From: Elusimicrobiaceae bacterium
Lineage (GTDB): Bacteria; Elusimicrobiota; Elusimicrobia; Elusimicrobiales; Elusimicrobiaceae
Direction: 5' to 3'
Length of the DNA stretch: 64,000 nucleotides
Assembly: GCA_017546175.1 (NCBI GenBank)
Contig: JAFYXM010000003.1
Location: 51,370-115,369 of the forward strand
Part shown: one piece after another, positions 2,139 to 51,258 of the stretch
Layout: each line of letters starts with the position of its first letter
Position numbering within the stretch: position 1 is the stretch's first letter
Position numbers and translations under genes: made by a program
The notes under the pieces: generated by a model
The model's database searches: none
What the model was told of the DNA's origin: nothing
What the model saw: the letters and a program-made list of their open reading frames with translations, nothing else

Positions 2139-2153
2139 TATAACTAAAAAATA

Positions 2154-2183
2154 TTGCGAAAATTTATACATTTTTACTATAAT
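2154..2183 (+). promoter_or_regulatory. sigma70-like promoter for tracrRNA (TTGCGA - 18 nt - TATAAT)
   Basis: TTGCGA at 2154-2159 and TATAAT at 2178-2183, placing a start site about 7 nt downstream, just before the anti-repeat. Confidence 0.6.
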
Positions 2184-2189
2184 ATTTAC

Positions 2190-2276
2190 AGAAACCTTAT
2201 TCTTATTTGTGCCTCAACTTAGGTAACAAGGGCATTAAAGCCCGCAAAGGGGTTAGTCCCCACTTAAATTCGTTTT
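2190..2276 (+). ncRNA. tracrRNA: tracrRNA (anti-repeat followed by two GC hairpins and a U-tail)
   Basis: 2194-2228 ACCTTATTCTTATTTGTGCCTCAACTTAGGTAAC is imperfectly complementary to the repeat: 11 bp with GAAGAATAAGGT, 6 bp with AGGCAC, and 7 bp with GTTCCTA plus a bulge. Downstream hairpins are GGGC-ATTAAA-GCCC (2230-2243) and GGGG-TTAG-TCCCC (2249-2261), then CGTTTT. The position between cas2 and the array fits type II loci. The ends are approximate. Confidence 0.8.
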
Positions 2277-2619
2277 AAAAATCCTCAAAGAGTATGAGTT
2301 GATCATACTTTTTGGGGATTTTTTCTTGTCGTAAGGCAGGACCATAGAAGTTTTTTGTAAGACCATATTGTTTATCGGTCATCATCATAAATGCACTTTT
2401 TCCTTGAGGAGGAGTTTGCGGACCTAACTGCTTGATGAGGGCTTGTGCTTGATGCATGGTAGGTAAATTGCGCACATACACGGAATATTGAAGCATAGTA
2501 AACCCATGATGAAGCAATAATTTTCTAAATCCTGCGTACCGCTTTCGCTGGACTTTGGTGTGCGTTGGTAAGTCAAAAACAGCTACTACCCACATAATAC
2601 GCCAACTATTGGGTTTCAT
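2275..2619 (-). CDS. cas2: CRISPR-associated endoribonuclease Cas2
   Basis: 114 aa with a Cas2-like ferredoxin-fold sequence (WVVAVFDLPT...YAGFRKLL...LQYSVYVR). Overlaps the cas1 stop by 14 nt. Confidence 0.9.
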   Translation of the reverse strand: MKPNSWRIMWVVAVFDLPTHTKVQRKRYAGFRKLLLHHGFTMLQYSVYVRNLPTMHQAQALIKQLGPQTPPQGKSAFMMMTDKQYGLTKNFYGPALRQEKIPKKYDQLILFEDF

Positions 2620-3589
2620 CTATAAATTGTCGTGTTTGCCACGATGTAACCGTAGAAGATTTTCCCGGACGAGAAGGAATATTAGGAAGTAGAAGTTTGC
2701 GACGGGGATCTTCCAAGCTGATACAATAACTGTTAATTGCCCAATCAATGCCATGAAATAAGCGGTATTCTTTTCCGGCAATTGAAACTGTACTAGACAA
2801 AAGAGAAGATAATATTTTCTTTTTTATATCTCTATCAAACGCGGAAATATTTTTTTGATAGAAGATATTCCAAACAATTTTATCTACTAAAAATCTAAAA
2901 GGCTCTATAAAATCATCAGCTAAATTAAAAGGATTGTCCTTACGGTGATGTCCGACCCCAAAATTTAAGCAAAGGCCCGCCCCCACCAAACCGCGTGCTA
3001 TAATAGCCCGAAGAACAGCATATCCGTAATTTAAAGATACATTAACGGGGTCCGTGGCGCCCTGTTTATCTCTAAAATCTACATTGGCATTTAAACTCTT
3101 AAAAAATGCTGGCCAATATATATGCGCGGCCTGTGCTTCTCTGCCGCTTTTATCGCCTAATTCAACATGACCAGCAATGATTTTTAAACGAGAGGACAAA
3201 TCGTCATCAAAAAAAGCCGCTGAGCAAGATTGACCATAAATTTTGGACTCTATTAGCTGTGACCACCATTTTTCAAATGTTTCTGTACTCAAGTACTTAG
3301 ACTGTAAAAAAGGTCGTTTAGCGCCGTCTATATTGGCTGCAACGGGCAAAGAAATGGCACAAGGCATATATTTCTCCCCCGCTGATACAATAACAGCACC
3401 GTTTTTGGATAACTCCTGATAAACAGCCAGTGACATAGTGATGCATGGATGAGATAAAATCAGCACAGCGATATCACAAGCGGCAATTAAATGCGTTTCC
3501 CCTGCTTGGGTAAATGTTATTTTAAGCCGCCCCGTATCAATAGAAATTTTAGCTTCTCTGTCTATACTGATTAAATGCTGTATGCTCAT
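2606..3589 (-). CDS. cas1: CRISPR-associated endonuclease Cas1 (type II)
   Basis: 327 aa with Cas1 motifs (LNYGYAVLRAIIARGLV, HHRKDNPFNLADDFIEPFR). 4-nt overlap with cas9. Confidence 0.93.
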   Translation of the reverse strand: MSIQHLISIDREAKISIDTGRLKITFTQAGETHLIAACDIAVLILSHPCITMSLAVYQELSKNGAVIVSAGEKYMPCAISLPVAANIDGAKRPFLQSKYLSTETFEKWWSQLIESKIYGQSCSAAFFDDDLSSRLKIIAGHVELGDKSGREAQAAHIYWPAFFKSLNANVDFRDKQGATDPVNVSLNYGYAVLRAIIARGLVGAGLCLNFGVGHHRKDNPFNLADDFIEPFRFLVDKIVWNIFYQKNISAFDRDIKKKILSSLLSSTVSIAGKEYRLFHGIDWAINSYCISLEDPRRKLLLPNIPSRPGKSSTVTSWQTRQFIDETQ

Positions 3590-6500
3590 CCGTTTTTAAG
3601 TTTTGCAATATCTTCACGAGAAGAAACCAAAGAGTAATTTTTGAGATTTGAAATATATGCCACGTTTCCAGTCGTTTCAGTAACCAGTCTTATTCCAACA
3701 CCGAATAAGGCAGCAAATTTCTGTACTTTATAGAACTGCTTATTTTCTTTATCAAACAAAATATCTCCTGCAAAGATTCTTACTATCCCTTCCGGAATTT
3801 GTTTTTGTTGTTGATATTTCCATAAGGGAATTAAGGCTACGCGTTTACCCGTTTTGGCATCAAAATCCATACAGGCATATCCATAATTCTGATAGCCTTT
3901 GCAATGTTGATTTCCTGATTTATCTTTGGAAATAACTTTTTTATCAGAATTTTCATCAAATTCACGTACACCGCGCCCCACCAAATACATATATTTCACT
4001 TTTTTTACTTTGTTTCCACGATAATAAATACCATCTAACGGATCATCTTTCTTTCCGCATAAAGCCTCTTCCTGCGTCATTCCTTTGGCTATACGCTCTT
4101 TAAATTGACGTAGAATTTCTTCTTTAATCGTATCTGTGAAAAGAAGTTTTTCTAAATTTTCAATTGTTTTCTTCTCATTGGCTTTCAAAAAACTACTCAG
4201 TTCTGCTCTTTTTACAAAACGTTCCACCCCCGTTTTATCTTTCACGACATTATAAGCCGTTTCATCAAAGAAAGCTCCGCTGGGATAGTGATCCGGTTTG
4301 TGCCATACCACATAATTTGTCAGGCGTTTTTGTACTTCTTGGCAAATTTTGGCATACTGAGGGATATTATCCAACATAAAGCCGGCAATATCCTTTTCGT
4401 GAATATGATTTCCGTTATCGTCTATGTATTCTATTTTGTGCAAAGTACCAAAATCCCGATGATGTTTTTCGGCACGTTGTAATAAAGACAAGTTGCACAA
4501 CCCAATGACCGCCGCATCTACGGCATGATGCCTATGATCACATCTCTTATTAAACTTTAATAACGTTTTTTGCTCAGCGCAGAATTTAGCAAAAGCTTTT
4601 TTCTTATCCTTTTCCGTTACAGGTTCTTCCTCTAAAGAAGATGAAAATACCTCAAAATCTTCTTTCAGTTCTTTCAAGTTGTGATAAGACAAACTTTCAT
4701 TAGAAAAAAGTTCCTTCCATTTTTTAGAATCAATTGATTTATTATCTTTATCTAAAAGTTCTTTTCCCTCCTCCAAACGGATATTGGGCAAAACTTTGTC
4801 AAACTGCAAATGACTGCGCAAATAGGCGGTCAGTTCTCCAAAGGTCGGCGTCACTTTCGGACAAACATCTTTACTCCAAGCTAAAACTATATCGCTGATC
4901 CATGCCGTCTGTTGTTTTTGACGATTGTTAAAATCATCTTTTAATTCGGAAGGAATCATTAATAAATTCTTAATCTTACGCAAAATACGCGCCCCTTTTT
5001 GGGAAGGTTTCCATTTTCGTTCTCTTTGGCAAAAATAACCTTTTTTCTCTTTAGAGTATAAAAGCCATAAATGTTGGACAAAGTTAATCAGCGGACTGTG
5101 TTTTCCAAAGGAAAAATCTTGAGTTTCCCCCTTTTTCTTTTTTTCTTTTATTTCCTTGCTAAATTCTCTATAATCATCTATATCTTCTTTAAATATCCAC
5201 TCGTAAGGAAGGCGATTAGATTTATCTTTATTTTTATCCGTAAAAGCCAAAACTTTGTTTTCAAACACATTCGGACCGGAAATATCTCCACGTTGCGGGA
5301 TAATGTGGTCCACTTGGGTCTGATGTTCGTCAAATGCCTGCTCAAAACTTATTGGATTACCGCTATAAGGGCAAGTTTTCTCCTGTTCCAACCACAACAA
5401 ATATTTTTCAATATTACGCGGTGTTACCAGTTTTTTATTCTCTTTTAATTCTTTAATAGCTTTTTGGCGTTCTTCGGCTTGTATTTTATTTTGACTTTCT
5501 AAAAACCGACGGCGGCTGAGTGAATTTTTCATTTCACGGGTCAGTTCCACCACCATTTCACTCGGCTGTCCGTATCTGTTAATAAGATAAGTCAAACTCT
5601 TGCGAAATTCTGTCAAAGCACGCAACATAACAGGGTCATTGATAGCCTCTTGGGCCTTAATAGCTTCTACACTGCGTAATTTACCCGAAGGACGTGGGTT
5701 GTGGTCAGCAAATTCTTGGATGATATCCGCCTCTTCTTCCCCTTGCAAAATTCTTTCCGTAAGCATTGTTAAAGCTTTCACACCATAGGCAGCACGGCCA
5801 GAAGTAAATTCTAAATTTTCTAAGCAATCTTTTTCCTTTAAGCATAAAACAAAATCTGTTCCTTGCTTTCTTTCTTCTGGACTGGAAAAAATATTTTTAG
5901 TTAAGGCATTAAATCTCTCTGTGATATAACTATTTGTATTATCAGAAATATCAGTTAAAGTAGTGATGTTGGCAAAAAACTCTATTACTAACTCTTGTAC
6001 CTTGTCCGTTAAATTGGACCATTCATTTAAAAAACCGATCTTTTCAAAAGCATAAGTGGTAGTATTTCCTTTTATTCCTTCTTTAGCCCCGTTTCGGCGA
6101 TCTGCTGTAAATCTAGCCGTCTGCGGTAAATTTAGCAAAGAATAAATCTTTTTAAAAGGAAAGCATAAAGTTTCGCTGGAATAATCGCTAGTAGCAGTGC
6201 GGATATGTTCAAAAAGATTGGCTTTTTGTGCCAAAGTCAAAGGGTGGGTTTCGCTCTCTCCTTTTTCTGCCCAACGCAAGTTGGCAATTTCTTTTACCAT
6301 GCGGTAAAGTTGATAGGCATTTTGGGCACAAGAAGCACGTTTTTCTTGAGGGAAGATAGAACAATTACCCACCGTTTCCAACTCCCATTTAATGGGACGT
6401 TGATAAAACATAGCCGAATAAAAAGCATCATGCAAAGCAATTTCTTTTTGATTAGGGAAATCGGGAAACATATTCTCACCCCAAACCTTATATGAAGTAT

Positions 6501-7143
6501 TTAATTGAGGATGATGCTTGCTCTGCTGCGCCCAAATTTTTTCAAATTCTTTTTCAATGGCTGTTCGGTATACAAAAGTACCGTCTTCTTCAATTTTACG
6601 CCAAGGCTGCCCTTTATCTGCCTTTTGTTTTTGCTCCCACAAAAGCTGCCCCAATGTCTTATCTTCACCTAAAAGAGTGTTGGTTTGCTTAATTTTTTTA
6701 CCAATTTTCCCCTGCTCCTCTTTTGATAAAAAACCTTTGTATCCTCTATTTTTAACAATATGAGAAAATACTTTCATCAGTTGCGGCAAGGAAATCTTTT
6801 CCTGCACCGCTTTTGCCCGAAGAAAAATAACATCTTCTTTATCCTGCTCTAAATCTTGCTTGGTAATGCCTAGTTGTTCAGCCATGTAGGTTAACTTTCG
6901 TAAACGAGCGGCTTTACGTTCAATTTGTCTACGAATTAACCGAGCAGAACGGCGAGAGGTATTTAAGGTTTCCATCTTTTTGGGCTCCACCGGTTCCCCA
7001 AAAATATAACTGTCCAAATGTTCTAAAGAAAGTATATTTCCCTTCTCATCTGTCTTATATACGGCAACACCTAAAGAGGAGGTCCCTAAATCAAACCCAA
7101 AACGATAAAAATTATCATAAGAAGTTAAAATTTCCTGTTTCAT
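3586..7143 (-). CDS. cas9: Cas9 endonuclease, type II-C architecture (1185 aa)
   Basis: RuvC-I FDLGTSSLGVAV (Asp18), Arg-rich bridge helix RRSARLIRRQIERKAARLRKL, HNH motif QVDHIIPQ...N..L, and RuvC-III HHAVDAAVIG. AAGGAG RBS at 7150-7155. No csn2 or cas4 in the locus. Confidence 0.95.
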   Translation of the reverse strand: MKQEILTSYDNFYRFGFDLGTSSLGVAVYKTDEKGNILSLEHLDSYIFGEPVEPKKMETLNTSRRSARLIRRQIERKAARLRKLTYMAEQLGITKQDLEQDKEDVIFLRAKAVQEKISLPQLMKVFSHIVKNRGYKGFLSKEEQGKIGKKIKQTNTLLGEDKTLGQLLWEQKQKADKGQPWRKIEEDGTFVYRTAIEKEFEKIWAQQSKHHPQLNTSYKVWGENMFPDFPNQKEIALHDAFYSAMFYQRPIKWELETVGNCSIFPQEKRASCAQNAYQLYRMVKEIANLRWAEKGESETHPLTLAQKANLFEHIRTATSDYSSETLCFPFKKIYSLLNLPQTARFTADRRNGAKEGIKGNTTTYAFEKIGFLNEWSNLTDKVQELVIEFFANITTLTDISDNTNSYITERFNALTKNIFSSPEERKQGTDFVLCLKEKDCLENLEFTSGRAAYGVKALTMLTERILQGEEEADIIQEFADHNPRPSGKLRSVEAIKAQEAINDPVMLRALTEFRKSLTYLINRYGQPSEMVVELTREMKNSLSRRRFLESQNKIQAEERQKAIKELKENKKLVTPRNIEKYLLWLEQEKTCPYSGNPISFEQAFDEHQTQVDHIIPQRGDISGPNVFENKVLAFTDKNKDKSNRLPYEWIFKEDIDDYREFSKEIKEKKKKGETQDFSFGKHSPLINFVQHLWLLYSKEKKGYFCQRERKWKPSQKGARILRKIKNLLMIPSELKDDFNNRQKQQTAWISDIVLAWSKDVCPKVTPTFGELTAYLRSHLQFDKVLPNIRLEEGKELLDKDNKSIDSKKWKELFSNESLSYHNLKELKEDFEVFSSSLEEEPVTEKDKKKAFAKFCAEQKTLLKFNKRCDHRHHAVDAAVIGLCNLSLLQRAEKHHRDFGTLHKIEYIDDNGNHIHEKDIAGFMLDNIPQYAKICQEVQKRLTNYVVWHKPDHYPSGAFFDETAYNVVKDKTGVERFVKRAELSSFLKANEKKTIENLEKLLFTDTIKEEILRQFKERIAKGMTQEEALCGKKDDPLDGIYYRGNKVKKVKYMYLVGRGVREFDENSDKKVISKDKSGNQHCKGYQNYGYACMDFDAKTGKRVALIPLWKYQQQKQIPEGIVRIFAGDILFDKENKQFYKVQKFAALFGVGIRLVTETTGNVAYISNLKNYSLVSSREDIAKLKNG

Positions 7144-7177
7144 AATCCGCTCCTTAAAGAAAAAATCTATTAACTGT

Positions 7178-7183
7178 ATTATA
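7178..7183 (-). promoter_or_regulatory. candidate -10 box (TATAAT) of a cas9 promoter
   Basis: TATAAT on the minus strand about 35 nt upstream of the cas9 ATG, downstream of the terminator that ends the preceding operon. The -35 element is unclear. Confidence 0.35.
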
Positions 7184-7248
7184 CTTTTTTATCAAAAAAA
7201 TAATATAAATTATTTATCTTCCTGCCAAAATTTAAAAAAAGACTTTAT

Positions 7249-7294
7249 CAAAAAATATTTAGAGATGGATTTTATTTTTTCAATCCATCTCTAA
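7249..7294 (-). terminator. Rho-independent terminator after the HTH-WYL gene
   Basis: Perfect 13-bp inverted repeat TTAGAGATGGATT / AATCCATCTCTAA (7259-7271 / 7282-7294), followed on the minus strand by ATATTTTTT. Confidence 0.75.
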
Positions 7295-7308
7295 AACAAA
7301 CAAATTTT

Positions 7309-8235
7309 TTATATCTTTTTTTTCTTAGCTTGATAACTGGCCAATATTGTTTCTATTTGCTTGGATAGTTCCGTCGGTTCTTGCACCATAATATGCGGCA
7401 GCCACGCCAAAATGGTGGGCAAAATCTCTTCGTACTTACCTGTAAAACACTCCAAAACAAGACCGTCTTTGGCTGATTTTTTGACTACTTTTTGTTTTGG
7501 GAAGTACTCCTTCTTTTCAAAATAAGGGGCAACTTCGGGGTCTACAAGCAGTTCCACTCGTTTATCGCGCTTATCCTCAAACCATACGGAGGCACTTTCT
7601 TCCAAAATCTTTTCTATCTTTTTGGGCCGTTTGAAGGAAACACCCGTGGGCTTGAGTTCTTTAATTTTATCCAAGCGGAGTTTTAAAATCACATCATCTT
7701 TACCAAGGGCAAGCAAATACCAAAAACCGTCAAACCAAGCGATTTTAAGCGGAGAAATATCTCTGCCCGACAATTTGGACTTATCATACACAATCGTCAA
7801 TTTTTCCTGCTTTTTAATAGCTTTTTCTATCAGTTTACTGTGGGTATCGTCTAAAAAAGCCTGTCCTTTAGGGAGTTTAATGTAAAAGGGGTTTTCTTTA
7901 TCGTTCTGCAAAATGCGGTCCCTCAGGCTGACATAGGTTTCTTGGAAACTTCCCCCCAAAGTACCTGCAATACTGGACAAAAGGGCCAACATGGCGGCTT
8001 CTTTGGCGCTGAGTTGCAGTTTCTGCAAGGAATACCCTTCCACAAAAGCGTACTCCCCTTTACTGGGGTTAGCGATAGGGAAACCCGCACTTTCCAAAAT
8101 CTTTATATCGCGCTGAATGGTGCGCACATTTACCATGAGTTCATCGGCAATATCTGCCAAATACACTTCGCCTTTATCAAACTCGCCTAAAATATACATC
8201 AGACGACTGATTTTATTTAATGTATCCCCTAGCAT
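7309..8235 (-). CDS. HTH-WYL (YafY/PafC-like) transcriptional regulator
   Basis: N-terminal wHTH (ADIADELMVNVRTIQRDIKILESAGFPI), central WYL domain (LTIVYDKS...RDISPLKIAWFDGFWYLLALGKDD...LRLDKIKEL), and a C-terminal WCX-like extension. Confidence 0.85.
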   Translation of the reverse strand: MLGDTLNKISRLMYILGEFDKGEVYLADIADELMVNVRTIQRDIKILESAGFPIANPSKGEYAFVEGYSLQKLQLSAKEAAMLALLSSIAGTLGGSFQETYVSLRDRILQNDKENPFYIKLPKGQAFLDDTHSKLIEKAIKKQEKLTIVYDKSKLSGRDISPLKIAWFDGFWYLLALGKDDVILKLRLDKIKELKPTGVSFKRPKKIEKILEESASVWFEDKRDKRVELLVDPEVAPYFEKKEYFPKQKVVKKSAKDGLVLECFTGKYEEILPTILAWLPHIMVQEPTELSKQIETILASYQAKKKKI

Positions 8236-8269: not shown

Positions 8270-9469
8270 TTATTTCTCTTTCTTTGCTTTCTTTTGCCAA
8301 GGTTTGGGCTCGTTGGAGGCTTTTACAACACCTAACGGAGTCAGTTTGACCAAGATTTTCACCAAGTCTTTTTGGTTTTCCATTACCTCGTCAATATTCT
8401 TATACGCGCTGGGGGCTTCGTCTAACAGGCCTTGCTCGTTCATGCGGTGCACAATGCCTTGGCTGTTTAAGATTTCCTGCTCGTGGGCCAAATCTAAATC
8501 TTTCATGGCTCTGCTGCGCGACATGCACCGCCCTGCCCCATGGGAACAAGATTGCAAAGAACTCTCGTTTCCTAAGCCCTGCACAATGTAGGAGCTCGTT
8601 CCCTGAGAACCGGGGATAATGCCCGTCGTATTTTCGCGTGCCAAAGTGGCCCCTTTGCGGTGCACCCATACTTTGCGGTTGTAATGCTCTTCCGCCGCGG
8701 CGTAGTTGTGGTGGATATTAATTTCCTGTACAAACTCCGCTTGCGGAAATTCTTCCAAAAACACCTTTTTGATAGACGTGGCAATCATTTTGCGGTTTTC
8801 AAAGGCAAAATCCAAGCAGAGTTTCATTTCATTAATATAATCGCCTGCTTCTCGTGTACCGATAGGAAGAAAAGCCAAATCTTGCTTGGCGATTTCTTCT
8901 TGCTTAAACATAGTGCAGAGTTTAACGGCTTTGTCGTTGTAATACTCGGCTACCTGTTTGCCCAAGTTGCGGCTGCCGCTGTGAATCATAAACCAAATGT
9001 GCCCGTCACTGCCGCGCTGAATTTCTATAAAGTGGTTTCCCCCACCCAACGTGCCGATTTGCTTTTGGGCGGAGAAAAATTCCCTTTTACATACTTCCGT
9101 CTTATTCCAACGGGTCAAATCCTGAAAAAGCGGGTTTTCCTGCGCTTCTTTATGGTGAGTAAACCCTACCGGCACGCGGTCGTAGATTTTATCTACAATG
9201 GCCTGCACTTTATCGCGCGTAATATCCGTAAGGCTCGTCTGTACGGCCAACATACCGCACCCGATATCCACCCCTACCATGTTGGGAGAAATGGCATTAT
9301 CTAAGGCCACTACCCCGCCAATAGGCATACCATAACCGCAATGGGCATCGGGCATCAAGCACACATTTCCCACCAAACAAGGGTGCTTAGATAAGTTTTG
9401 CACCTGTTGCATAGCCGCAGGCTCTAAATTTTTACACCAAGATAAAATGTTTTCTGCTAATTGTTCCAT
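8270..9469 (-). CDS. rtcB: RNA-splicing ligase RtcB (3'-phosphate/5'-hydroxyl RNA ligase)
   Basis: 399 aa with all metal/GMP-His motifs present: MPDAHCGYG, GGGNHFIE, IHSGSRNLG, NIHHNYA, SCSHGAGR. Confidence 0.95.
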   Translation of the reverse strand: MEQLAENILSWCKNLEPAAMQQVQNLSKHPCLVGNVCLMPDAHCGYGMPIGGVVALDNAISPNMVGVDIGCGMLAVQTSLTDITRDKVQAIVDKIYDRVPVGFTHHKEAQENPLFQDLTRWNKTEVCKREFFSAQKQIGTLGGGNHFIEIQRGSDGHIWFMIHSGSRNLGKQVAEYYNDKAVKLCTMFKQEEIAKQDLAFLPIGTREAGDYINEMKLCLDFAFENRKMIATSIKKVFLEEFPQAEFVQEINIHHNYAAAEEHYNRKVWVHRKGATLARENTTGIIPGSQGTSSYIVQGLGNESSLQSCSHGAGRCMSRSRAMKDLDLAHEQEILNSQGIVHRMNEQGLLDEAPSAYKNIDEVMENQKDLVKILVKLTPLGVVKASNEPKPWQKKAKKEK

Positions 9470-9479
9470 AATTCATTCC

Positions 9480-9944
9480 TTATACACCTAGTATTTCTAT
9501 TTGGTCTCCATCTTTCATGACAAATTCTGTCCAAGCAAATATATCATCAAGCATACTATCTATTTCTTTATGATCGCTCCATACAGCATCAGGGTAATTG
9601 GTTAAACTATATGTATAATCATAATCGATTTCTTGCTTTACCTGTTGGACATAATCATACATATCCTTAAACGAATTAAAACGAACGAGTTTTCGCGCCT
9701 CATTGAGTAGTTTTAGCCAATCTTGTTTTTTTAATGCATAGCATTCATATATATCTAATCCGCTAAGATCTATTACTATTCCATAAGCAACTGCCAAAAA
9801 TAAGAAATCATCTAGATTGATATAAAGTTGATTTAATCTTCTATCATCCGAAGGGTAACAGTACAATACAATATAGTCGGTAGTATTTCTTTCTTGATTC
9901 AGCTTTTTACTTTTTGGTTTAAAAACTAGATTATTGTTCGTCAT
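9480..9944 (-). CDS. hypothetical protein (154 aa), first gene of the rtcB operon
   Basis: The ORF-track frame was trimmed to the ATG at 9944, which is preceded by AGGAAG. It lies 10 nt upstream of rtcB. I recognise no motif. Confidence 0.6.
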   Translation of the reverse strand: MTNNNLVFKPKSKKLNQERNTTDYIVLYCYPSDDRRLNQLYINLDDFLFLAVAYGIVIDLSGLDIYECYALKKQDWLKLLNEARKLVRFNSFKDMYDYVQQVKQEIDYDYTYSLTNYPDAVWSDHKEIDSMLDDIFAWTEFVMKDGDQIEILGV

Positions 9945-9970
9945 AAGACTTTTTCTTCCTAATCTATAGT

Positions 9971-9994
9971 AAAAACCAAGGGAAAGACTCCCTT
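9971..9994 (-). terminator. terminator-like hairpin immediately upstream of the hyp154 RBS (possible attenuator)
   Basis: On the minus strand: AAGGGA-GTCTT-TCCCTT followed by GGTTTTT. Sits in the leader of the rtcB operon. Confidence 0.35.
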
Positions 9995-10097
9995 TCCACC
10001 CTAGCACGCACTTAAGCGCTTCCTAGGCAGTGGAAAGGTGCATACTTAGAATCCTCTCCTAGGCAGGACTTCCACAATAGTCTTTCCATTGGCACAT

Positions 10098-10134
10098 CAA
10101 AAAGGATAGCCGATCTCTAGGAATCGGACCTTTT
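10098..10134. terminator. bidirectional terminator-like hairpin flanked by an A-tract and a T-tract
   Basis: AAAAAGG-ATAG-CCGAT-CTCTAGGA-ATCGG-A-CCTTTTT. A second ATCGG copy at 10137-10141 offers an alternative pairing partner. Confidence 0.4.
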
Positions 10135-10199
10135 TGTATCGGAGCAGAGACCAGGTGTATGCAACCCTGTGCTAACCCCGACACTTATATCGTAGCATA

Positions 10200-10271
10200 C
10201 GTACGCGACAGCGTATGGTCGTATTAAAAAATATTTTTAAAAAATTTATCACGACCTACTGTTGTCGCGTA
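10200..10271. promoter_or_regulatory. 22-nt-arm imperfect inverted repeat around an AT-rich core; candidate operator with back-to-back divergent promoters
   Basis: GTACGCGACA (10200-10209) pairs perfectly with TGTCGCGTAC (10262-10271), and GGTCGT (10216-10221) with ACGACC (10250-10255). The core is ATTAAAAAATATTTTTAAAAAATTTATC. Candidate plus-strand promoter: TTATCA (10245-10250) - 18 nt - TACTAA (10269-10274). Candidate minus-strand promoter: GTGATA (10251-10246) - 18 nt - TTTAAT (10227-10222). Confidence 0.5.
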
Positions 10272-10280
10272 CTAATGTTA

Positions 10281-10628
10281 TGATAGATATATGAGTAGCA
10301 AAGCGTGGAGATAAAACCTACAGACCGAAGCGCTTGCTACCCAAAAAGATAGGTTTTATAGTAACTCTGTGCAAGTAGAGATGGAGATCTTCTATATTCC
10401 CTATTTAAAAGGCAAAAGGCGGGCTAGACTTGCCAACAGACACGGCTTGCGTAAGCGTGTGAGGCATTTTTAGTTCACCTTTAACCTAAGGGGTGTTAGG
10501 TATTGGCAGTTCTGCTTAACAGTATTTCGGGCACCCGCCCGATCCAGAGCCATGGGGAACAGCACTCCTATAAGCGCTCGGGTTTTACTTAGAGCAGTCT
10601 GAGATACTGCCTAGCACCCTTTTTATTT
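10281..10628 (+). ncRNA. candidate structured RNA or long leader upstream of the NTase operon, ending in a U-tract
   Basis: No ORF of 60 aa or more on either strand. Multiple complementary segments: 10294-10304/10330-10339, 10310-10319/10349-10358, 10439-10447/10452-10459, 10491-10497/10611-10617, 10504-10509/10605-10610, 10511-10518/10588-10596, and the hairpin CGGGC-ACCC-GCCCG at 10527-10540. CTTTTTATTTT at 10618-10628. The 5' end is a guess from the candidate promoter. Confidence 0.4.
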
Positions 10629-10663
10629 TAGAGCTTTATCGCACAAAAACTTATCATACAATT

Positions 10664-11425
10664 ATGAAAGAGAAGATCATTAAAAAATTAGAAGAACTGG
10701 AAAAAGAGCACCATATCAAAATCTTTCACGCGGTGGAATCGGGAAGCCGTGCGTGGGGGTTCGCATCGCAAGACAGCGATTATGATGTCCGCTTTTTGTA
10801 TTATCACCGCCCCGAGTGGTATTTTTCGGTTTCAAAGCAAGCAGATAACCTTGTGCAAATGCAAGAAAACAATTTACTGGATTTTGCCGGCTGGGAACTG
10901 AAAAAAACTTTGCTTTTGCTTATCAAGGGGAATATGTCCTTATATGAGTGGATACATAGCCCTATTGTCTATAAACAAAGCAAAGAATTTGATGCTTTCC
11001 AAGCACTTGCCCAAGAGTTCTACAATCCCAAAGCATTAATGTTTTCATATGTAGGGCTAGCAGAAAACAACTGCAAAGCCTATGCCGACAGAGAAAAGCC
11101 AAAACTTAAAAAGTATTTGTACATTTTGCGCACTTTAGCGGCTTGCCACTGGATAGAACAACGGAAAACTCCTCCCCCCATAGAAATGGATAAACTGAAG
11201 GAAGTTTTCCGCCACGAACCGCTTATATGGGACTTCTTAAACAACTTGATTGAGGAGAAAAAGAAAGGGACAGAGCTGGGCGTTATAGATTCCCCTGTGC
11301 TTATTAACCGGTGGATAGAAGAACAACTATCCTATTATAAGAAGTTAGCCGACAGGTTGCCCGACTCGGTAAAAGATACGACTCTTTTATCAAACTTCTT
11401 TTATAAGACAGTCATGGAGAGATAA
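10664..11425 (+). CDS. Pol-beta superfamily nucleotidyltransferase, RlaP-like (RNA-ligase-associated NTase, COG3541-like)
   Basis: 253 aa with NTase motif ESGSRAWGFASQDSDYDVRFLY (GS...DxD) and a helical C-terminal region. Neighbours rtcB. No clear SD before the ATG. Confidence 0.7.
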   Translation: MKEKIIKKLEELEKEHHIKIFHAVESGSRAWGFASQDSDYDVRFLYYHRPEWYFSVSKQADNLVQMQENNLLDFAGWELKKTLLLLIKGNMSLYEWIHSPIVYKQSKEFDAFQALAQEFYNPKALMFSYVGLAENNCKAYADREKPKLKKYLYILRTLAACHWIEQRKTPPPIEMDKLKEVFRHEPLIWDFLNNLIEEKKKGTELGVIDSPVLINRWIEEQLSYYKKLADRLPDSVKDTTLLSNFFYKTVMER

Positions 11426-11426
11426 A

Positions 11427-11729
11427 ATGAAAACGATTTTATTTGATATAGACGGTACATTGGCAGACTGAAACGGACGGGAAAAGTTCTTAAAACAAGA
11501 AAAACCTGATTGGAAGAACTTTAACGCTAAAGAGGTAAAACAAGATATACTAAACTCCCTCAGAACCCAAGGAAAGGATATTCTTTTTACCATAGATGAC
11601 CGCCAAAGTGTAGTGGATATGTGGCGTGCTAATGGTATTACTTGTTTACAATGTAAAAAAGGAATTATTAGCTTTTATTTTTCGGTAAAATATACAATAA
11701 GCATAATAAAAACATCTATGAGGGTATAG
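11427..11729 (+). pseudogene. decayed HAD-family (T4 Pnk-type) polynucleotide 3'-phosphatase: in-frame TGA at codon 15 and apparent internal deletion
   Basis: MKTILFDIDGTLAD-TGA-NGREKFLKQEKPDWKNF...GKDILFTIDDRQSVVDMWRANGITCLQCKKG. HAD motif I (DxDGT) and motif IV (DD) plus the VVDMW..G..C.Q tail are recognisable. The roughly 60 aa that normally carry motifs II/III are missing. Confidence 0.6.
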
Positions 11730-11731
11730 TA

Positions 11732-12703
11732 ATGTCTTTATTCTTTCTTTTGGCTTTAATCGGAGGATGGTGTCTTATTTTTTGGATAGCCACCCTAATG
11801 GGCAGAAAAGATTTTGCAGTCAATCTTTTTCCGATATTTTTTTTCGTGGTAATAGCCTATTTGTGGGTAAATGCCAACAAGGATACTTATTGGTTCCGAG
11901 GTATTTTCGCAAAACCTGCCGGTAAGCCAAAAGATTTTGTACTACCCCCCAAAAAAACTATCTCTGACGAAACTACCTCCTATTACAGAAAAATAAAAGA
12001 GGCATTAAAATCAAAAAGCGATATTTGCTTTGAATACACCAATATGCAAGGCCAAACTGCCACAAGGCATGTAAGGCCCACGGAAATTTATTTTGCCGGA
12101 TACGGAAAAGTTTACATAAAGGGATTTGATTTAGATAAACAAGAGGAGCGTAATTTTAAGGTGGAAAAAATGAAAAATTTACAAATCCTTTCAAGTAGCC
12201 AAACAAAGAGTACGGATAAAAACTCCGAGTTTCTTTTAACATTAAAAACTTACTCAAAAACCATTTTTATCTTAATCGGCATACAGGCAAGCGGCAAGAG
12301 TTCTTTTGCCAATAGATTTCTGGGAAATTGCACCCACATCAGCCTAGACCAGTTAAACACAAGACGAAACGAAGAAACGGCCTTAAAAGTGGCTCTTCTG
12401 ATAATGAAAGAAAACTGTGTAATAGATAACACCAACCCCACTCGCCAAGAACGCCAAAAATACATTGATTTGGGGAAAAAAGCCGGTTATAAAATAGTGG
12501 GGCTCTATTTTAGCTCCGCAATTAACGAATGTATTAAACGCAACGACAAACGCTTCGGCAAGGCAAAAATACCGCTCAAAGGCCTGCTTGCCACCGCCAA
12601 ACGCTTGCAACAACCGTCTTTGCAGGAAGGGTTTGATGAACTATACTATGTAAAAATAGAAAACAAAGAATTTGTTATTTCCAAATGGGACGAAACACTA
12701 TGA
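11732..12703 (+). CDS. membrane-anchored WYL domain fused to a P-loop polynucleotide-kinase-like (AAA_33) domain
   Basis: Two N-terminal hydrophobic helices (LFFLLALIGGWCLIFWIATL, LFPIFFFVVIAYLWV). WYL-like module ICFEYTNMQGQTATRHVRPTEIYFAGYGKVYIKGFDLDKQEERNFKVEKMKNL. Kinase features: Walker A ILIGIQASGKSSF, then SLDQL, IDNTN and R-rich lid motifs. RBS GAGGG. Confidence 0.75.
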   Translation: MSLFFLLALIGGWCLIFWIATLMGRKDFAVNLFPIFFFVVIAYLWVNANKDTYWFRGIFAKPAGKPKDFVLPPKKTISDETTSYYRKIKEALKSKSDICFEYTNMQGQTATRHVRPTEIYFAGYGKVYIKGFDLDKQEERNFKVEKMKNLQILSSSQTKSTDKNSEFLLTLKTYSKTIFILIGIQASGKSSFANRFLGNCTHISLDQLNTRRNEETALKVALLIMKENCVIDNTNPTRQERQKYIDLGKKAGYKIVGLYFSSAINECIKRNDKRFGKAKIPLKGLLATAKRLQQPSLQEGFDELYYVKIENKEFVISKWDETL

Positions 12704-13455
12704 AATTTGATGAATTTGATAAAAAAATGAGAAAGTTTGAGGAATCGTTGGATCAGGTTATCCCTTCCACTTCCTTTATGGTGGCCCGCCTTGACGGTAA
12801 GGGTTTTACCAAATTAACCAAGAAAGATATGGTTTTGGAAAAACCCTTTGATATCCGATTCAGGGACGCCGTCATCAATACGATTAAATATCTCATGAAC
12901 GGATATTTCCAAATTGCATATGCATACAATGAAAGTGATGAAATTTCTCTTTTATTCAAATCCAATGCAGATAAATTCGGCCGAAAAGTACGCAAATATA
13001 ATTCTATTCTGGCAGCCGAAACCAGTGTGCATTTTTCCCAACAAATCGCACAAAACGCCATTTTTGATTGCCGCATGATTGCCTTGCCCGATATAGAAGC
13101 CGTACAAGATTATTTTGCGTGGCGGCAGACTGATTCCAACCGAAATTCCGTTCTGGCGCATTGTTATTATAAACTGGTAGCCGATGGAAAAACCCCGCAG
13201 GAGGCCGCCGCTTACTTACGCAATTTGCCTTTTCGCGATAAAGTACAGCTTTTGGCTCATTTTGGCATGGAATTAAACGATATTCCCAAGTGGCAACTAT
13301 ACGGAAGTGCCGTCTATTGGCAAGAAAATATCAAACAAGGGCTTAACCCTGCCACCCACACTTCCCAACAGACACTGCGCCATACGCTGACGGTAAATTA
13401 TGACTTACCCGTCGGGGAAGAGTATCGCCGTTTTATTACCCGACAAATTACTTAA
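12700..13455 (+). CDS. Thg1-like protein (TLP), tRNA 3'-5' nucleotidyltransferase
   Basis: MKFDEFDKKMRKFE..., ARLDGKGFTKLTK, EKPFDIRFRD, YNESDEISLLF, FGRKVRKYNSILAAETS. The start was chosen at the ATGA overlap with the upstream stop (12700-12703). Confidence 0.85.
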   Translation: MKFDEFDKKMRKFEESLDQVIPSTSFMVARLDGKGFTKLTKKDMVLEKPFDIRFRDAVINTIKYLMNGYFQIAYAYNESDEISLLFKSNADKFGRKVRKYNSILAAETSVHFSQQIAQNAIFDCRMIALPDIEAVQDYFAWRQTDSNRNSVLAHCYYKLVADGKTPQEAAAYLRNLPFRDKVQLLAHFGMELNDIPKWQLYGSAVYWQENIKQGLNPATHTSQQTLRHTLTVNYDLPVGEEYRRFITRQIT

Positions 13456-24468: not shown

Positions 24469-24512
24469 TTACACCGCCTTGCAAAAGGCGAATAATAAGG
24501 AGAAGTTAACAC

Positions 24513-24767
24513 ATGGCAGTCGTCATTAGATTACAAAGAGTGGGTAAAAAATCCCATCCGCAATACAGAGTCGTAGCGATTGAAAAGAAAACCGCCGTCG
24601 GTTCTGAAGCTAAAGAAGTATTGGGTATCTATCACCCGTGCAACAAAGAAACCGCTGAACAGGTCAAATTGGACATGGCTCGCGTAAACCATTGGATTAA
24701 AAATGGTGCCAAACCGTCTGAAACGGTAGCCAGCTTGATCAAAAAAGCCGAAGCCGCCGCTAAATAA
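24513..24767 (+). CDS. rpsP: 30S ribosomal protein S16
   Basis: MAVVIRLQRVGKKSHPQYRVVA... Confidence 0.93.
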   Translation: MAVVIRLQRVGKKSHPQYRVVAIEKKTAVGSEAKEVLGIYHPCNKETAEQVKLDMARVNHWIKNGAKPSETVASLIKKAEAAAK

Positions 24768-24772
24768 GTTTT

Positions 24773-25003
24773 ATGAAAGAGTTAGCCACTATCCTTCTCA
24801 AATCGCTCTCCGCTAATCCGGACAATGTGGTGGTAGAAGAAAAAGTTGAGAATACGAAAGTTTACCTGACTACCAAAGTATCTGCAGAAGATAAAGGGAA
24901 AGTCATTGGTAAAGACGGCTGTATCATTAAAGCTGTACGCACGGTGCTCAGCGCTGCGGCAGCAAAAAAGAACGTGAAAGTCACGCTCAAATTGGAAGAC
25001 TAA
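24773..25003 (+). CDS. KH-domain RNA-binding protein (YlqC/UPF0109 family)
   Basis: 76 aa with VIGKDGCIIKAVRTVL. Conserved position between rpsP and trmD. Confidence 0.8.
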   Translation: MKELATILLKSLSANPDNVVVEEKVENTKVYLTTKVSAEDKGKVIGKDGCIIKAVRTVLSAAAAKKNVKVTLKLED

Positions 25004-50764: not shown

Positions 50765-50766
50765 TT

Positions 50767-51231: not shown

Positions 51232-51258
51232 AAATCATACTACTGCTAAAAAACCGCT

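What the first reader, a model, noticed from the sequence alone, without database searches (positions are those of the whole stretch)
9945..10663. About 0.7 kb ORF-free, non-AT-rich hub between the divergent repair operons, likely encoding structured RNA(s)
**Seen**
- No ORF of 60 aa or more in any frame across 719 nt, in a genome where intergenic spacers are otherwise 10-150 nt and visibly AT-rich.
- Outside a central AT-rich core, this stretch looks compositionally like coding or structured-RNA sequence.
- It is dense in complementary segments and hairpins followed by U-tracts on both strands.

**Established**
- RtcB loci in other bacteria carry dedicated non-coding RNAs, such as the Y-RNA-like/tRNA-like YrlA next to rsr-rtcB.
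- RtcR-type regulation responds to RNA fragments.

**Inference**
- The hub may encode one or two novel RNAs acting as substrate mimics, sensors, decoys or attenuating leaders for the repair system.
- No Rsr/TROVE gene is present, so a classic Ro-Y RNA pair is unlikely.
Basis: partly seen in the sequence, partly recalled or inferred. Interest (0 to 1): 0.8.

Follow-up and report, generated by a model that had tools for sequence, protein, structure and literature searches.

The report
RNA-repair control hub with structured RNAs
The 0.7-kb gene-free stretch holds two back-to-back regulated promoters, each followed by a folded non-coding RNA that matches no described RNA family; the left RNA shares modules with RNAs that, in sister genomes, lie between a Ro60-like gene and the RNA ligase gene rtcB.

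Summary
Window 9945-10663 has no real ORF, is the longest non-CRISPR spacer in the window, and has near-genomic GC.

It has three parts:
- **Centre (about 10189-10291).** Two inverted copies of a 16-bp operator, CGACC-N6-TGTCG. Each lies 8 nt upstream of an extended -10 element (TGnTAYGAT). The same layout precedes RNA-repair genes in nine related Elusimicrobia locus types, eight of which show an HTH-WYL-WCX regulator gene.
- **Left RNA (minus strand, about 10183 to 9971, some 215 nt).** Three hairpin domains (H1-H3) and a U5 tract. H1 keeps its pairing through 8 double-sided changes across three genomes.
- **Right RNA (plus strand, about 10291 to 10629, some 340 nt).** Conserved without an ORF in three genomes. 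Only the sense strand folds unusually well.

Neither RNA matches any Rfam family or a tRNA, and neither looks like a pseudogene remnant.

In sister genomes the H1 and H2-H3 modules lie in a 420-610 nt structured RNA region between a DUF2828 gene and rtcB. The predicted DUF2828 fold matches Ro60. This layout parallels Salmonella rsr-yrlBA-rtcBA, but the window has no Ro60-like gene and the YrlA tests fail.

Best reading: non-coding RNAs embedded at the 5' ends of the two operons. A purely cis-acting attenuator role is not excluded. Covariation for the right RNA is not significant with only three sequences.

The parts
10206..10221 (-). Operator of the leftward promoter; reads CGACCATACGCTGTCG on the minus strand
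   Evidence: The motif CGACC-N6-TGTCG occurs only twice in the 64-kb window. It recurs in the same orientation in front of repair genes in L001, L009, L010, L013, L019, L023, L026, L029 and L031.
10189..10197 (-). Extended -10 element of the leftward promoter (TGCTACGAT); predicted start of transcription near 10183
   Evidence: TGnTAnnnT lies at a fixed distance after the operator in nearly all instances. The transcription start is inferred, not measured.
10222..10251 (.). AT-rich core between the two operators
   Evidence: GC is 0.34-0.38. This core is retained in the 187-nt RtcB-RlaP spacer of L001.
10252..10267 (+). Operator of the rightward promoter (CGACCTACTGTTGTCG)
   Evidence: The two promoter arms align with each other at score 35, against 18.5 +/- 2.4 for shuffles.
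10276..10284 (+). Extended -10 element of the rightward promoter (TGTTATGAT); predicted start of transcription near 10291
   Evidence: Identical in L009 and L029.
10137..10183 (-). Left RNA, domain H1. A hairpin with an 8-bp outer stem, a UAG/CUG clamp, a conserved internal loop (NA opposite (U)GUCN) and a 4-bp inner stem.
   Evidence: Homologous hairpins occur in L009/L019, L031 and the L029 rtcB leader. Over window, L019 and L031, 8 of 15 pairs keep pairing through changes on both sides and none is broken.
10098..10136 (-). Left RNA, domain H2 (CAAAAAGG ... CCUUUUUG closing an inner hairpin)
   Evidence: Present in L009/L019 and in the L013 leader. In the outer stem, 2 pairs change on both sides and 1 on one side with pairing kept, and 1 pair is broken in L013. 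The inner hairpin differs in sequence but is kept.
9971..10093 (-). Left RNA, domain H3. A branched domain of about 118 nt, closed by a 14-bp stem and capped by a GCGC-UUAAGU-GCGU hairpin, then UUUUU (9975-9971).
   Evidence: MFE fold and terminator-like call. The apical hairpin with a UUARRY loop also occurs 3 times in the L019 RNA region and once in L031. The stems differ from L019 but stay paired.
10295..10340 (+). Right RNA, hairpin R1 (weakly supported)
   Evidence: The 5' strand GAGUAGCAAAGCGUG is conserved even in L019, which lacks the rest of the RNA. Changes in the 3' strand in L009 and L029 break pairs.
10347..10406 (+). Right RNA, hairpin R2 (an optional module)
   Evidence: Present in the window and L009, absent from L029. 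MFE fold.
10410..10487 (+). Right RNA, domain R3-R4 (nested hairpin closed by AAAGG/CCUUU)
   Evidence: Conserved in the window, L009 and L029. Variation is mostly between G-C and G-U pairs, which fits the + strand only.
10488..10629 (+). Right RNA, domain R5. About 135 nt, multi-branched, closed by a 15-bp stem, then UUUUUAUUUU (10620-10629).
   Evidence: All 5 pairs with a double-sided change lie in this domain.
9480..9944 (-). 154-aa gene of unknown function, the first ORF after the left RNA. It travels together with H2-H3.
   Evidence: Only 7 homologue clusters are known. In the window, L009/L019 and L013 it is preceded by H2-H3. Conservation by codon position shows it is a real gene.
7309..8235 (-). 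HTH_11-WYL-WCX regulator, the presumed binder of the operator
   Evidence: Pfam hits. A regulator of this family is encoded in eight of the nine related locus types that carry the operator (L009, L013, L019, L023, L026, L029, L031, and the 308-aa form in L005/L006). L001 was not checked and none was seen on the 4.1-kb contig L010.

Best explanation
The hub is the control centre of two divergent RNA-repair operons. One operon carries the 154-aa gene, RtcB and the HTH-WYL regulator. The other carries RlaP, a WYL-PNK kinase and a Thg1-like enzyme.

**Shown**
- The middle 100 bp holds two mirror-image promoter units. Each is a 16-bp operator (CGACC-N6-TGTCG) lying 8 nt upstream of an extended -10 element.
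- This unit is conserved across the clade, in front of repair genes.
- Each promoter is followed, on the sense strand, by a long structured stretch without an ORF. The left one is about 215 nt (H1-H2-H3, then U5). The right one is about 340 nt (R1-R5, then a U-tract).

**Inferred**
- The locus-encoded HTH-WYL-WCX protein binds the operators and switches both operons on when it senses RNA damage.
- Every induced transcript therefore starts with these RNAs.
- The closing stems followed by U-tracts let part of the transcripts end or be processed there. That would yield stable non-coding RNAs. Read-through would supply the mRNAs.
- In sister genomes H1 and H2-H3 sit in a 420-610 nt RNA region between a Ro60-like (DUF2828) gene and rtcB. 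I therefore read the RNAs as partners, scaffolds or decoys of the repair proteins. They would be functional analogues of the Y RNAs of rsr-yrlBA-rtcBA, not sequence relatives.
- In this genome the Ro60-like gene and two thirds of that RNA region are missing. H2-H3 arrived together with the 154-aa gene cassette.
For: **Operator and promoter**
- The operator occurs only twice in the 64-kb window.
- It has the same orientation and the same spacing to TGnTAnnnT in 9 related locus types.
- In L001 the RtcB-RlaP spacer is 187 nt and retains only this centre.

**Strand of the RNAs**
- Fold z-scores favour the transcribed strand on both sides.
- Many conserved G-U pairs would be C-A mismatches on the other strand.

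**Left RNA**
- H1 keeps pairing through 8 double-sided changes in 15 pairs, with none broken.
- The H2 outer stem covaries with L013.
- H3 keeps its apical hairpin on stems of different sequence.

**The RNA region in relatives**
- L019 and L031 are 79% identical over the RNA region. Third codon positions of the flanking genes are only 48-52% identical.
- RNAalifold predicts 119 pairs, 14 of them with double-sided changes.
- Fold z-scores are -8.3 and -6.5.

**Right RNA**
- It is ORF-free and conserved in three genomes.
- Window and L009 are 82% identical over the RNA, against 67-68% at third codon positions.
- It always follows the operator-promoter, although the downstream gene differs: RlaP in the window and L029, a kinase in L009.

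**Ro60 link**
- The DUF2828 model has pLDDT 77.
- Its 8 best PDB matches are all Ro60/TROVE structures, with E from 4e-8 to 2e-4 over about 500 aligned columns.
- The order DUF2828, RNA, rtcB, WYL occurs in L009, L019-22 and L031.
- In Enterococcus phage EFDG1 two YrlA-like matches lie just upstream of a DUF2828 gene.
- The precedent is the rsr-yrlBA-rtcBA operon (PMC7790460, PMC4201824).

**Against coding**
- Six-frame peptides match only the homologous non-coding stretches, and no Pfam family.
Against: - There are no expression data. Transcript starts, ends and stability are all predicted.
- Covariation in the right RNA is not significant with three sequences. It shows 5 double-changed pairs against 3.4 in shuffles, reached by 109 of 500 shuffles.
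- The R1 hairpin loses pairs in L009 and L029.
- Window and L029 are so close that 84% RNA identity says little. Third codon positions there are 80-85% identical.
- The window has no Ro60-like gene.
- The RNAs lack the YrlA model match, the GNCGAAN0-1G motif and tRNA-like arms.
- L001, L026 and the 228-aa side of L019 have the same promoter without long leaders. The RNAs are therefore dispensable for the repair system.
- Their position directly between promoter and first ORF is also what a purely cis-acting leader would show.
- Only a handful of closely related genomes carry them. Two JGI metagenome scans and two IMG/VR scans with right-RNA and RNA-region patterns found nothing. A third IMG/VR scan, for relatives of the 154-aa protein, also found nothing.
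Confidence: 0.45

Rival explanations
1. The flanks are purely cis-acting leaders. They would be conditional terminators or attenuators, or 5' UTR stability or translation elements, and would tune read-through into the repair genes in response to a protein, an RNA fragment or a metabolite. They would have no role as free RNAs.
For: - Both RNAs lie between the promoter and the first ORF on the sense strand.
- Both end in a stem followed by a U-tract, 25-35 nt before the start codon.
- No separate promoter is visible between the U-tracts and the ORFs, so downstream expression needs read-through.
- H2-H3 always precede the 154-aa gene, also in L013, where they directly follow the promoter.
- Other relatives carry unrelated GC-rich leaders in the same position (L023 and L029 in front of rtcB).
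Against: - The 'terminator' stems close branched domains of 100-135 nt. That is atypical for attenuators.
- I saw no conserved alternative (antiterminator) pairing, but I made no systematic search for one.
- No Rfam cis-regulatory family matches.
- H1 and the UUARRY-capped hairpins also occur inside a long RNA region downstream of a complete gene (DUF2828) in L019 and L031. That is not a leader position.
- The modules are gained and lost independently. R2 is absent in L029, and the 5' two thirds of the RNA region seen in L019 and L031 are absent here.
Confidence: 0.33
2. The flanks are decaying leftovers. They would be scars of deletions and cassette insertions in a locus that is visibly eroding. 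They would fold by chance and by recent common descent, and have no current function.
For: - The same locus holds a decayed HAD-PNKP gene at 11426-11731.
- Compared with L019 and L031, the window has lost the DUF2828 gene and most of the RNA region.
- L001 functions with a 187-nt spacer.
- Left RNA identity to L019 is 73%, close to the 67-68% at third codon positions.
- The spacer is 100% identical in all six assemblies of this species, so there is no within-species information.
Against: - Compensatory changes keep H1, H2 and H3 paired, with none broken in H1.
- The right RNA is more conserved than synonymous sites against L009: 0.82 against 0.67.
- The folding excess depends on the strand.
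- There is no similarity to any coding sequence of the related loci or to Pfam.
- The RNA region in L019 and L031 is under clear constraint: 79% identity against 48-52%.
Confidence: 0.1
3. The signal is at the DNA level. The whole hub would be an extended array of protein-binding palindromes for the WYL regulator or for nucleoid proteins, and the apparent RNA folds would be a by-product.
For: - The centre really is a pair of inverted operator sites.
- The H3 apex contains the palindrome CTTAAG, and H2 is symmetric enough to score as a terminator on both strands.
Against: - The operator motif occurs only twice and only in the centre.
- DNA palindromes would fold equally well on both strands. 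The sense strands instead fold better by 19-20 kcal/mol, and conserved G-U pairs are frequent.
- The compensatory changes preserve pairing, not sequence.
Confidence: 0.04
4. The hub encodes small proteins. One candidate is the mini-ORF at the predicted right-hand transcription start (AUG AGU AGC AAA GCG UGG AGA UAA, giving MSSKAWR). It could act as a leader peptide.
For: The mini-ORF starts at the predicted +1. Its first six codons are conserved in L009 (ATG) and L029 (GTG).
Against: - The stop position varies: after 5, 7 or 24 codons in L019, in the window and L029, and in L009.
- There is no ribosome-binding site.
- The conservation is at the nucleotide level and extends equally into non-ORF sequence.
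- All other ORFs are 41 aa or shorter, are not conserved as ORFs, and match no Pfam family.
Confidence: 0.03

Closest known systems
Salmonella rsr-yrlB-yrlA-rtcB-rtcA operon and bacterial Y RNAs (YrlA, Rfam RF02553; PMC7790460, PMC4201824)
   Same: - Non-coding RNAs are embedded in an inducible operon that encodes the RtcB ligase.
- In the sister genomes (L009, L019, L031) the order is Ro60-like gene, then structured RNAs, then rtcB, all on one strand under one regulated promoter.
- Several RNA modules lie in tandem.
- Each module is closed by a long terminal stem.
   Different: - There is no match to the YrlA model, no GNCGAAN0-1G motif and no tRNA-like D or T arms.
- The protein partner in the relatives is DUF2828/DUF7788, not a Pfam TROVE protein.
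- The window itself has no Ro60-like gene.
- The regulator is an HTH-WYL-WCX protein with an extended -10 promoter, not the sigma-54 activator RtcR.
- The operons also carry RlaP, a PNK-like kinase and a Thg1-like enzyme in place of RtcA.
WYL-domain transcription factors acting at operator plus -10 promoters (PafBC with its RecA-NDp motif, PMC6789036; DriD, BrxR and CapW from memory)
   Same: - The locus encodes an HTH-WYL-WCX regulator.
- A conserved, non-palindromic-looking site lies immediately upstream of a -10 element, where a -35 element would normally be.
- The regulated genes deal with nucleic-acid damage.
   Different: - Binding, the ligand, and whether the protein activates or represses are all untested here.
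- I noticed a similar spacing between the TGTCG core and the TAnnnT element. That comparison with RecA-NDp rests on my memory only.
- The targets here are RNA-repair genes, not DNA-repair genes.
Leader RNAs with intrinsic terminators (riboswitches, T-boxes, ribosomal-protein leaders)
   Same: - The position is between promoter and first ORF.
- The sequence is structured.
- It ends in a stem followed by a U-tract shortly before the start codon.
   Different: - No Rfam cis-regulatory family matches.
- The terminal stems enclose large branched domains.
- No antiterminator alternative was identified.
- The modules also occur downstream of a complete gene in relatives.

Membership tests
YrlA / bacterial Y RNA (Rfam RF02553) | Match to the YrlA covariance model | tested here: not met
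   No YrlA hit at E up to 10 in the hub or in the RNA regions of L019 and L031. As a positive control, the same search finds two YrlA-like matches (E 4e-7 and 2e-4) next to a DUF2828 gene in phage EFDG1.
YrlA / bacterial Y RNA (Rfam RF02553) | Encoded within 4 kb of a Ro60 orthologue, on the same strand (criterion of PMC4201824) | tested here: not met
   No DUF2828 or TROVE gene in the 64-kb window (tblastn; Pfam on neighbouring genes). The criterion is met for the homologous modules H1 and H2-H3 in L009/L019, and for H1 in L031.
YrlA / bacterial Y RNA (Rfam RF02553) | GNCGAAN0-1G motif near the 5' end (the presumed Rsr contact) | tested here: not met
   Absent from both hub RNAs and from the L019 and L031 RNA regions. 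One GGUCCGA occurs in window H2 but is not conserved in L019.
YrlA / bacterial Y RNA (Rfam RF02553) | tRNA-like domain with D and T arms | tested here: not met
   ARAGORN finds nothing in the hub or in the relatives. A T-loop pattern hits only the non-conserved GGUCCGAUUC in H2.
Y RNA in the broad sense | 80-130 nt RNA with a long stem formed by its 5' and 3' ends, plus internal loops | tested here: inconclusive
   H3 is about 118 nt, closed by a 14-bp stem and followed by U5. R5 is about 135 nt, closed by a 15-bp stem. The shape fits, but these are predictions and the ends are not mapped.
Y RNA in the broad sense | Bound by a Ro60-family protein | not testable with these tools
   This needs RIP or EMSA with the DUF2828 protein of an L019-type strain.
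Terminator-type leader / attenuator | Sense-strand position between promoter and first ORF, ending in a hairpin plus U-tract | tested here: met
   Promoter alignment. Terminator-like calls at 9997-9981 and 10127-10110 on the - strand. The R5 closing stem is followed by UUUUUAUUUU at 10620-10629.
Terminator-type leader / attenuator | Conserved, mutually exclusive antiterminator pairing, or a match to a known cis-regulatory family | tested here: not met
   No Rfam cis-regulatory hit. I saw no alternative pairing by inspection, but made no systematic search for one.
WYL-regulator-controlled promoter | HTH-WYL(-WCX) regulator encoded in the locus, and a conserved operator that co-occurs with it across genomes | tested here: met
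   Pfam HTH_11, WYL and WCX on 7309-8235. The operator lies in front of repair genes in nine related locus types, eight of which show a WYL regulator gene; L001 was not checked and none was seen on the short contig L010.
WYL-regulator-controlled promoter | Direct binding of the regulator, and response to a ligand | not testable with these tools
   This needs EMSA or footprinting and reporter assays.
Pseudogene remnant | Six-frame translation similar to a known protein or to genes of related loci | tested here: not met
   All translated matches fall on the homologous non-coding stretches. None falls on a gene. The 8 longest peptides match no Pfam family at E up to 1.
tracrRNA of the adjacent type II CRISPR-Cas | Anti-repeat complementary to the CRISPR repeat | tested here: not met
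   The hub shares no similarity with the rest of the window. By eye, the anti-repeat lies next to the array at about 2196-2222.

The most novel reading that the evidence does not exclude
The left and right RNAs, together with the longer RNA regions in L009, L019 and L031, form a previously undescribed class of repair-operon RNAs. They would partner with the DUF2828 branch of Ro60-like proteins and with the RtcB, RlaP and Thg1 enzymes. They would be switched on by a WYL regulator that senses RNA damage. This would be a second, independently built 'Ro - Y RNA - RtcB' system, with RNAs unrelated to YrlA. That this genome keeps H1-H3 and the right RNA without the Ro60-like gene would mean the RNAs also work independently of Ro, for example as decoys for ribotoxins or as scaffolds for the ligase.
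Probability: 0.3. Interest if true: 0.8.

Novelty: new variant of a known kind. Interest (0 to 1): 0.6.

Why it matters
The roles of Y RNAs and Ro60-like proteins in bacterial RtcB repair operons are still open (PMC7790460).

**What this adds**
- A clade of gut Elusimicrobia builds the same layout from different parts.
  - The switch is a WYL regulator, not RtcR.
  - The protein is a DUF2828 Ro60-like protein, not Rsr.
  - The RNAs are not YrlA.
- The present genome keeps the RNAs but not the Ro60-like gene.

**Why that is useful**
- If the RNAs are real, the comparison gives natural 'with Ro' and 'without Ro' versions of one system. That makes it possible to ask what such RNAs do.
- They would be two new structured RNA candidates, of about 215 and 340 nt.
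- The 16-bp operator is well defined and is presumably the binding site of the locus-encoded HTH-WYL-WCX regulator.

**Limits**
- The family is known from only a few metagenome assemblies.
- All transcript features are predicted.

Tried and rejected
- **Known RNA families.** Rfam E-value scans of the hub, twice, and a gathering-score scan of the whole window gave only spurious miRNA hits on the central palindrome and one tRNA elsewhere. ARAGORN found no tRNA or tmRNA in the hub or in the relatives.
- **tracrRNA for the neighbouring cas9.** Rejected. The anti-repeat lies next to the array at about 2196-2222.
- **Pseudogene.** Six-frame peptides against all related loci, the rest of the window and Pfam gave nothing.
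- **Mobile repeat.** No second copy in the window and no plasmid match.
- **Canonical Ro-binding motif and T-arm.** Only a non-conserved GGUCCGA(UUC) in H2. One such 7-mer is expected by chance about 0.09 times in 719 nt on two strands.
- **Hairpin-ribozyme loop A in H1.** The resemblance is AGNA opposite GUC next to a 4-bp helix. I dropped it because UAG/CUG can pair, which leaves a 2-by-4 loop. There is also no loop-B domain and no Rfam hit. It was not tested further.
- **Leader peptide MSSKAWR.** The stop position is not conserved.
- **More homologues.**
  - The genome-contig scan with RlaP gave only L001 and L002.
  - Two JGI metagenome pattern scans gave nothing.
  - Three IMG/VR scans gave nothing.
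- **Structure of the 154-aa protein.** pLDDT was 44, so the model is unusable.
- **Sequence-profile search of DUF2828 against the PDB.** No hit. Only the fold search shows the Ro60 relationship.
- **Literature.** Burroughs and Aravind 2016 is not in the paper library.
Full report
**1. Setting**

The window comes from a gut Elusimicrobiaceae-type genome. The nearest named relatives are Elusimicrobiaceae and Avelusimicrobium MAGs. The same 719-nt spacer is 100% identical in six public assemblies.

Gene order around the finding:
- CRISPR array, 1-2139.
- cas2, cas1 and cas9 on the minus strand, up to 7143.
- HTH_11-WYL-WCX regulator, 7309-8235 (-).
- RtcB, 8270-9469 (-).
- A 154-aa gene with no Pfam hit, 9480-9944 (-).
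- The spacer under study, 9945-10663.
- RlaP, 10664-11425 (+).
- A WYL-AAA_33 protein with PNK-like kinase hits, 11732-12703 (+).
- A Thg1-like enzyme, 12685-13455 (+).
- A 323-aa gene of unknown function.

The spacer therefore separates two divergent RNA-repair operons.

**2. The observation**

No ORF of 60 aa or more lies inside the spacer. The longest internal ORFs are 41, 34 and 31 aa. GC is 0.44-0.53 on the flanks and 0.34-0.38 in the middle. The window average is 0.431. A typical spacer such as 7144-7308 has GC 0.19.

Apart from the CRISPR array, this is the longest ORF-poor spacer in the window. The median spacer is 28 nt.

Terminator-like hairpins are enriched: 6 found against 1.4 +/- 1.5 expected. 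Folding is better than for shuffled sequence and depends on the strand.
- Right half, + strand: -115.7 kcal/mol, z -3.4. Its - strand: -97.0, z -1.0.
- Left half, - strand: -87.2 kcal/mol, z -4.5. Its + strand: -67.4, z -3.2.

In both halves the better-folding strand is the one transcribed towards the adjacent operon.

**3. The centre is a double promoter with an operator, not RNA**

The two arms around the AT-rich core resemble each other as an inverted repeat. The alignment score is 35, against 18.5 +/- 2.4 for shuffles.

In L001 (Elusimicrobiaceae RGIG5461; RlaP 78% identical) the RtcB-RlaP spacer is only 187 nt. It keeps just this centre.

The core motif CGACC-N6-TGTCG occurs only twice in the 64-kb window, at 10206-10221 and 10252-10267. 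In L001, L009, L010, L013, L019, L023, L026, L029 and L031 it lies in front of repair genes. It always reads CGACC..TGTCG towards the gene. It is followed after 7 nt by (A/T)TGnTAnnnT, an extended -10 element, with no -35 element.

Eight of these nine locus types show an HTH-WYL-WCX regulator gene. L001 was not checked, and none was seen on the short L010 contig. I infer that this regulator binds the operator. PafBC is a precedent: a WYL/WCX activator that works through a non-palindromic promoter motif (PMC6789036). I remember a similar spacing for that motif, but I did not check it.

The predicted transcription starts are near 10183 (-) and 10291 (+). They are inferred from the -10 elements.

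**4. Left RNA (minus strand, about 10183 to 9971)**

It folds into three domains.
- **H1**, 10183-10137.
- **H2**, 10136-10098.
- **H3**, 10093-9976, followed by UUUUU.

The Shine-Dalgarno sequence AGGAAG and the ATG of the 154-aa gene follow H3.

*H1.* Homologous hairpins occur in L009/L019, L031 and the L029 rtcB leader. Across window, L019 and L031 the 8-bp outer stem is almost completely replaced (UGUCGGGG/CUCCGAUA against UUUAUCCC/GGGAUAAA). The inner stem changes from CAGG/CCUG to CGGA/UCCG. The UAG/CUG clamp and the loop residues NA and (U)GUCN stay constant. In total, 8 of 15 pairs change on both sides with pairing kept, and none is broken.

*H2.* The stem CAAAAAGG/CCUUUUUG is kept in L019. 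Against L013 it covaries: A-U to C-G, G-C to A-U, and A-U to G-U.

*H3.* It keeps a GC-closed apical hairpin with a UUAAGU loop on stems of different sequence. The same NNN-UUARRY-NNN hairpin occurs three times in the L019 RNA region and once in L031. It does not occur in the right RNA or in unrelated leaders.

*H2-H3 and the 154-aa gene.* The L013 leader, which precedes a 151-aa homologue, is homologous to H2-H3 of the L019 RNA region (z 8.7). H2-H3 therefore travel with that gene.

The gene itself looks like a recently exchanged cassette.
- Its GC is 0.31, against 0.41-0.47 for its neighbours.
- Third-codon-position identity between window and L019 is 0.90, against 0.59-0.68 for RlaP, RtcB and the WYL gene.
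- Against L013 and L017 it shows the conservation order of a real gene: position 2, then 1, then 3.

**5. Right RNA (plus strand, about 10291 to 10629)**

It is present without an ORF in L009, upstream of a kinase gene, at 83% identity. It is also present in L029, upstream of RlaP, at 82% (blastn alignments). A global alignment of the RNA alone gives 82% and 84%.

In each case it starts directly after the operator-promoter. L029 lacks the R2 hairpin, so the RNA is modular.

RNAalifold predicts 84 pairs.
- 5 pairs have double-sided changes, all in R5.
- 19 pairs change on one side only, mostly between G-C and G-U.
- 94% of cells are paired.

With three sequences this does not exceed the shuffle control: 109 of 500 shuffles reach it. 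The R1 hairpin loses pairs in L009 and L029.

Constraint is visible against L009: 0.82 identity against 0.67-0.68 at third codon positions. It is not visible against the very close L029: 0.84 against 0.80-0.85.

The RNA ends in a 135-nt branched domain closed by a 15-bp stem, followed by UUUUUAUUUU. This lies 34 nt before the RlaP ATG.

**6. What the relatives add**

In L009 and L019-22 the operon reads: operator, then a 523-aa DUF2828/DUF7788 gene, then a 610-nt spacer, then the 154-aa gene, then RtcB, then the WYL regulator. In L031 it reads: operator, DUF2828, a 421-nt spacer, RtcB, WYL.

These spacers fold with z -8.3 and -6.5. L019 and L031 are 79% identical over them, while third codon positions of the flanking genes are 48-52% identical. 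RNAalifold finds 14 double-sided compensatory pairs among 119. They are therefore structured RNAs under selection. In L019 the region contains H1 (inside a larger domain) followed by H2 and H3. In L031 it contains H1 only.

Sequence searches of the DUF2828 protein against the PDB find nothing. Pfam gives a weak vWA_Ro60 hit (E 0.0026). An AlphaFold model (pLDDT 77) has Ro60/TROVE structures as its eight best PDB matches. They include phage Ro60, D. radiodurans Rsr and Xenopus Ro60. E ranges from 4e-8 to 2e-4, probability is 1.0, and about 500 columns align.

DUF2828 genes occur in 710 phage records. In Enterococcus phage EFDG1 two YrlA-like matches (E 4e-7 and 2e-4, both below the gathering score) lie just upstream of one, on the same strand.

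The order 'Ro60-like gene, RNAs, rtcB' parallels Salmonella rsr-yrlBA-rtcBA (PMC7790460, PMC4201824).

The window has no DUF2828 gene. It also lacks the 5' two thirds of the RNA region.

**7. What it is not**

- No Rfam family matches the hub or the RNA regions of the relatives.
- There is no tRNA or tmRNA.
- There is no YrlA motif and no T arm.
- It is not the tracrRNA. The anti-repeat lies at about 2196-2222.
- It has no protein remnants.
- It has no copy elsewhere in the window or in plasmids.

**8. Mechanism**

*Shown:* a conserved operator-promoter pair, and sense-strand structured, ORF-free RNAs that begin at the predicted starts and end in a stem plus U-tract just before the first ORFs.

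*Inferred:*
- The WYL regulator induces both operons.
- Part of the transcripts end or are processed at the U-tracts, which gives free RNAs.
- Read-through gives the mRNAs.
- The RNAs act with the repair proteins as Y-RNA-like partners or decoys.

The main rival is a purely cis-acting attenuator or leader role. The two readings are not exclusive, and only transcript mapping can separate them. I give the embedded-RNA reading 0.45, the cis-only leader 0.33, non-functional relics 0.10, DNA-level sites 0.04 and small proteins 0.03.

**9. Verdict**

The feature is real and is more than a spacer. The RNAs belong to no described family, but the kind of thing is known: non-coding RNAs inside a Ro/RtcB-type repair operon. 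I therefore rate it a new variant of a known kind.

The evidence is solid for the operator, for H1 and for the RNA region in the relatives. It is moderate for H2-H3 and weaker for the right RNA. There are no expression data, and the family is known from only a few assemblies.

Noticed in passing
window 11426-11731: The 306-nt 'gap' between RlaP and the WYL-kinase gene is a decayed HAD_PNKP phosphatase gene. Its two ends match the intact 146-aa genes of L019, L001, L023 and L026 and the 152-aa gene of L029, and the middle is deleted.
   Followed up: partly
window 9480-9944: The 154-aa gene has GC 0.31, against 0.41-0.47 for its neighbours. It is 90% identical to L019 at third codon positions, against 59-68% for RlaP, RtcB and the WYL gene. 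It looks like a recently exchanged cassette. Its function is unknown, only 7 homologue clusters exist, and in L013 and L014 it lies near an integrase and an Imm_superinfect gene.
   Followed up: partly
window 1-2330: CRISPR array with a 36-nt repeat and about 32 copies. Two consecutive spacers are identical (about 1281-1310 and 1347-1376). A tracrRNA-like anti-repeat lies on the + strand at about 2196-2222, followed by hairpins and a terminator up to about 2330.
   Followed up: no
window 3586-8235; L023, L029, L026: The WYL regulator and RNA-repair locus lies directly next to CRISPR-Cas in several genomes: cas9 in the window, L023 and L029, and a type III-A csm operon in L026. I did not examine whether the WYL regulator also controls the cas genes.
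   Followed up: no
L009 1819-3390; L019 3110-4681; L031 7001-8563; L032 3459-5530: DUF2828/DUF7788 proteins have a predicted Ro60-like fold and occur in 710 phage records. In Enterococcus phage EFDG1 two YrlA-like Rfam matches lie just upstream of the gene, next to a tRNA and tmRNA cluster.
   Followed up: partly
L023 5508-5700; L029 4665-4875: Other relatives carry leaders of about 170-200 nt between the same operator-promoter and rtcB. The L023 leader is GC-rich and unrelated in sequence to the hub RNAs. The L029 leader contains an H1-like element with a long insertion.
   Followed up: partly
window 24469-25002 and 50765-51306: Two further ORF-poor spacers of 534 and 542 nt have near-genomic GC (0.44 and 0.42). 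No Rfam family reaches its gathering score there.
   Followed up: no
L010 108-123, 2623-2638, 3391-3406; L013 2656-2671; L031 14153-14168: Further copies of the operator lie in front of unrelated small genes. This suggests a regulon wider than the repair operons.
   Followed up: no
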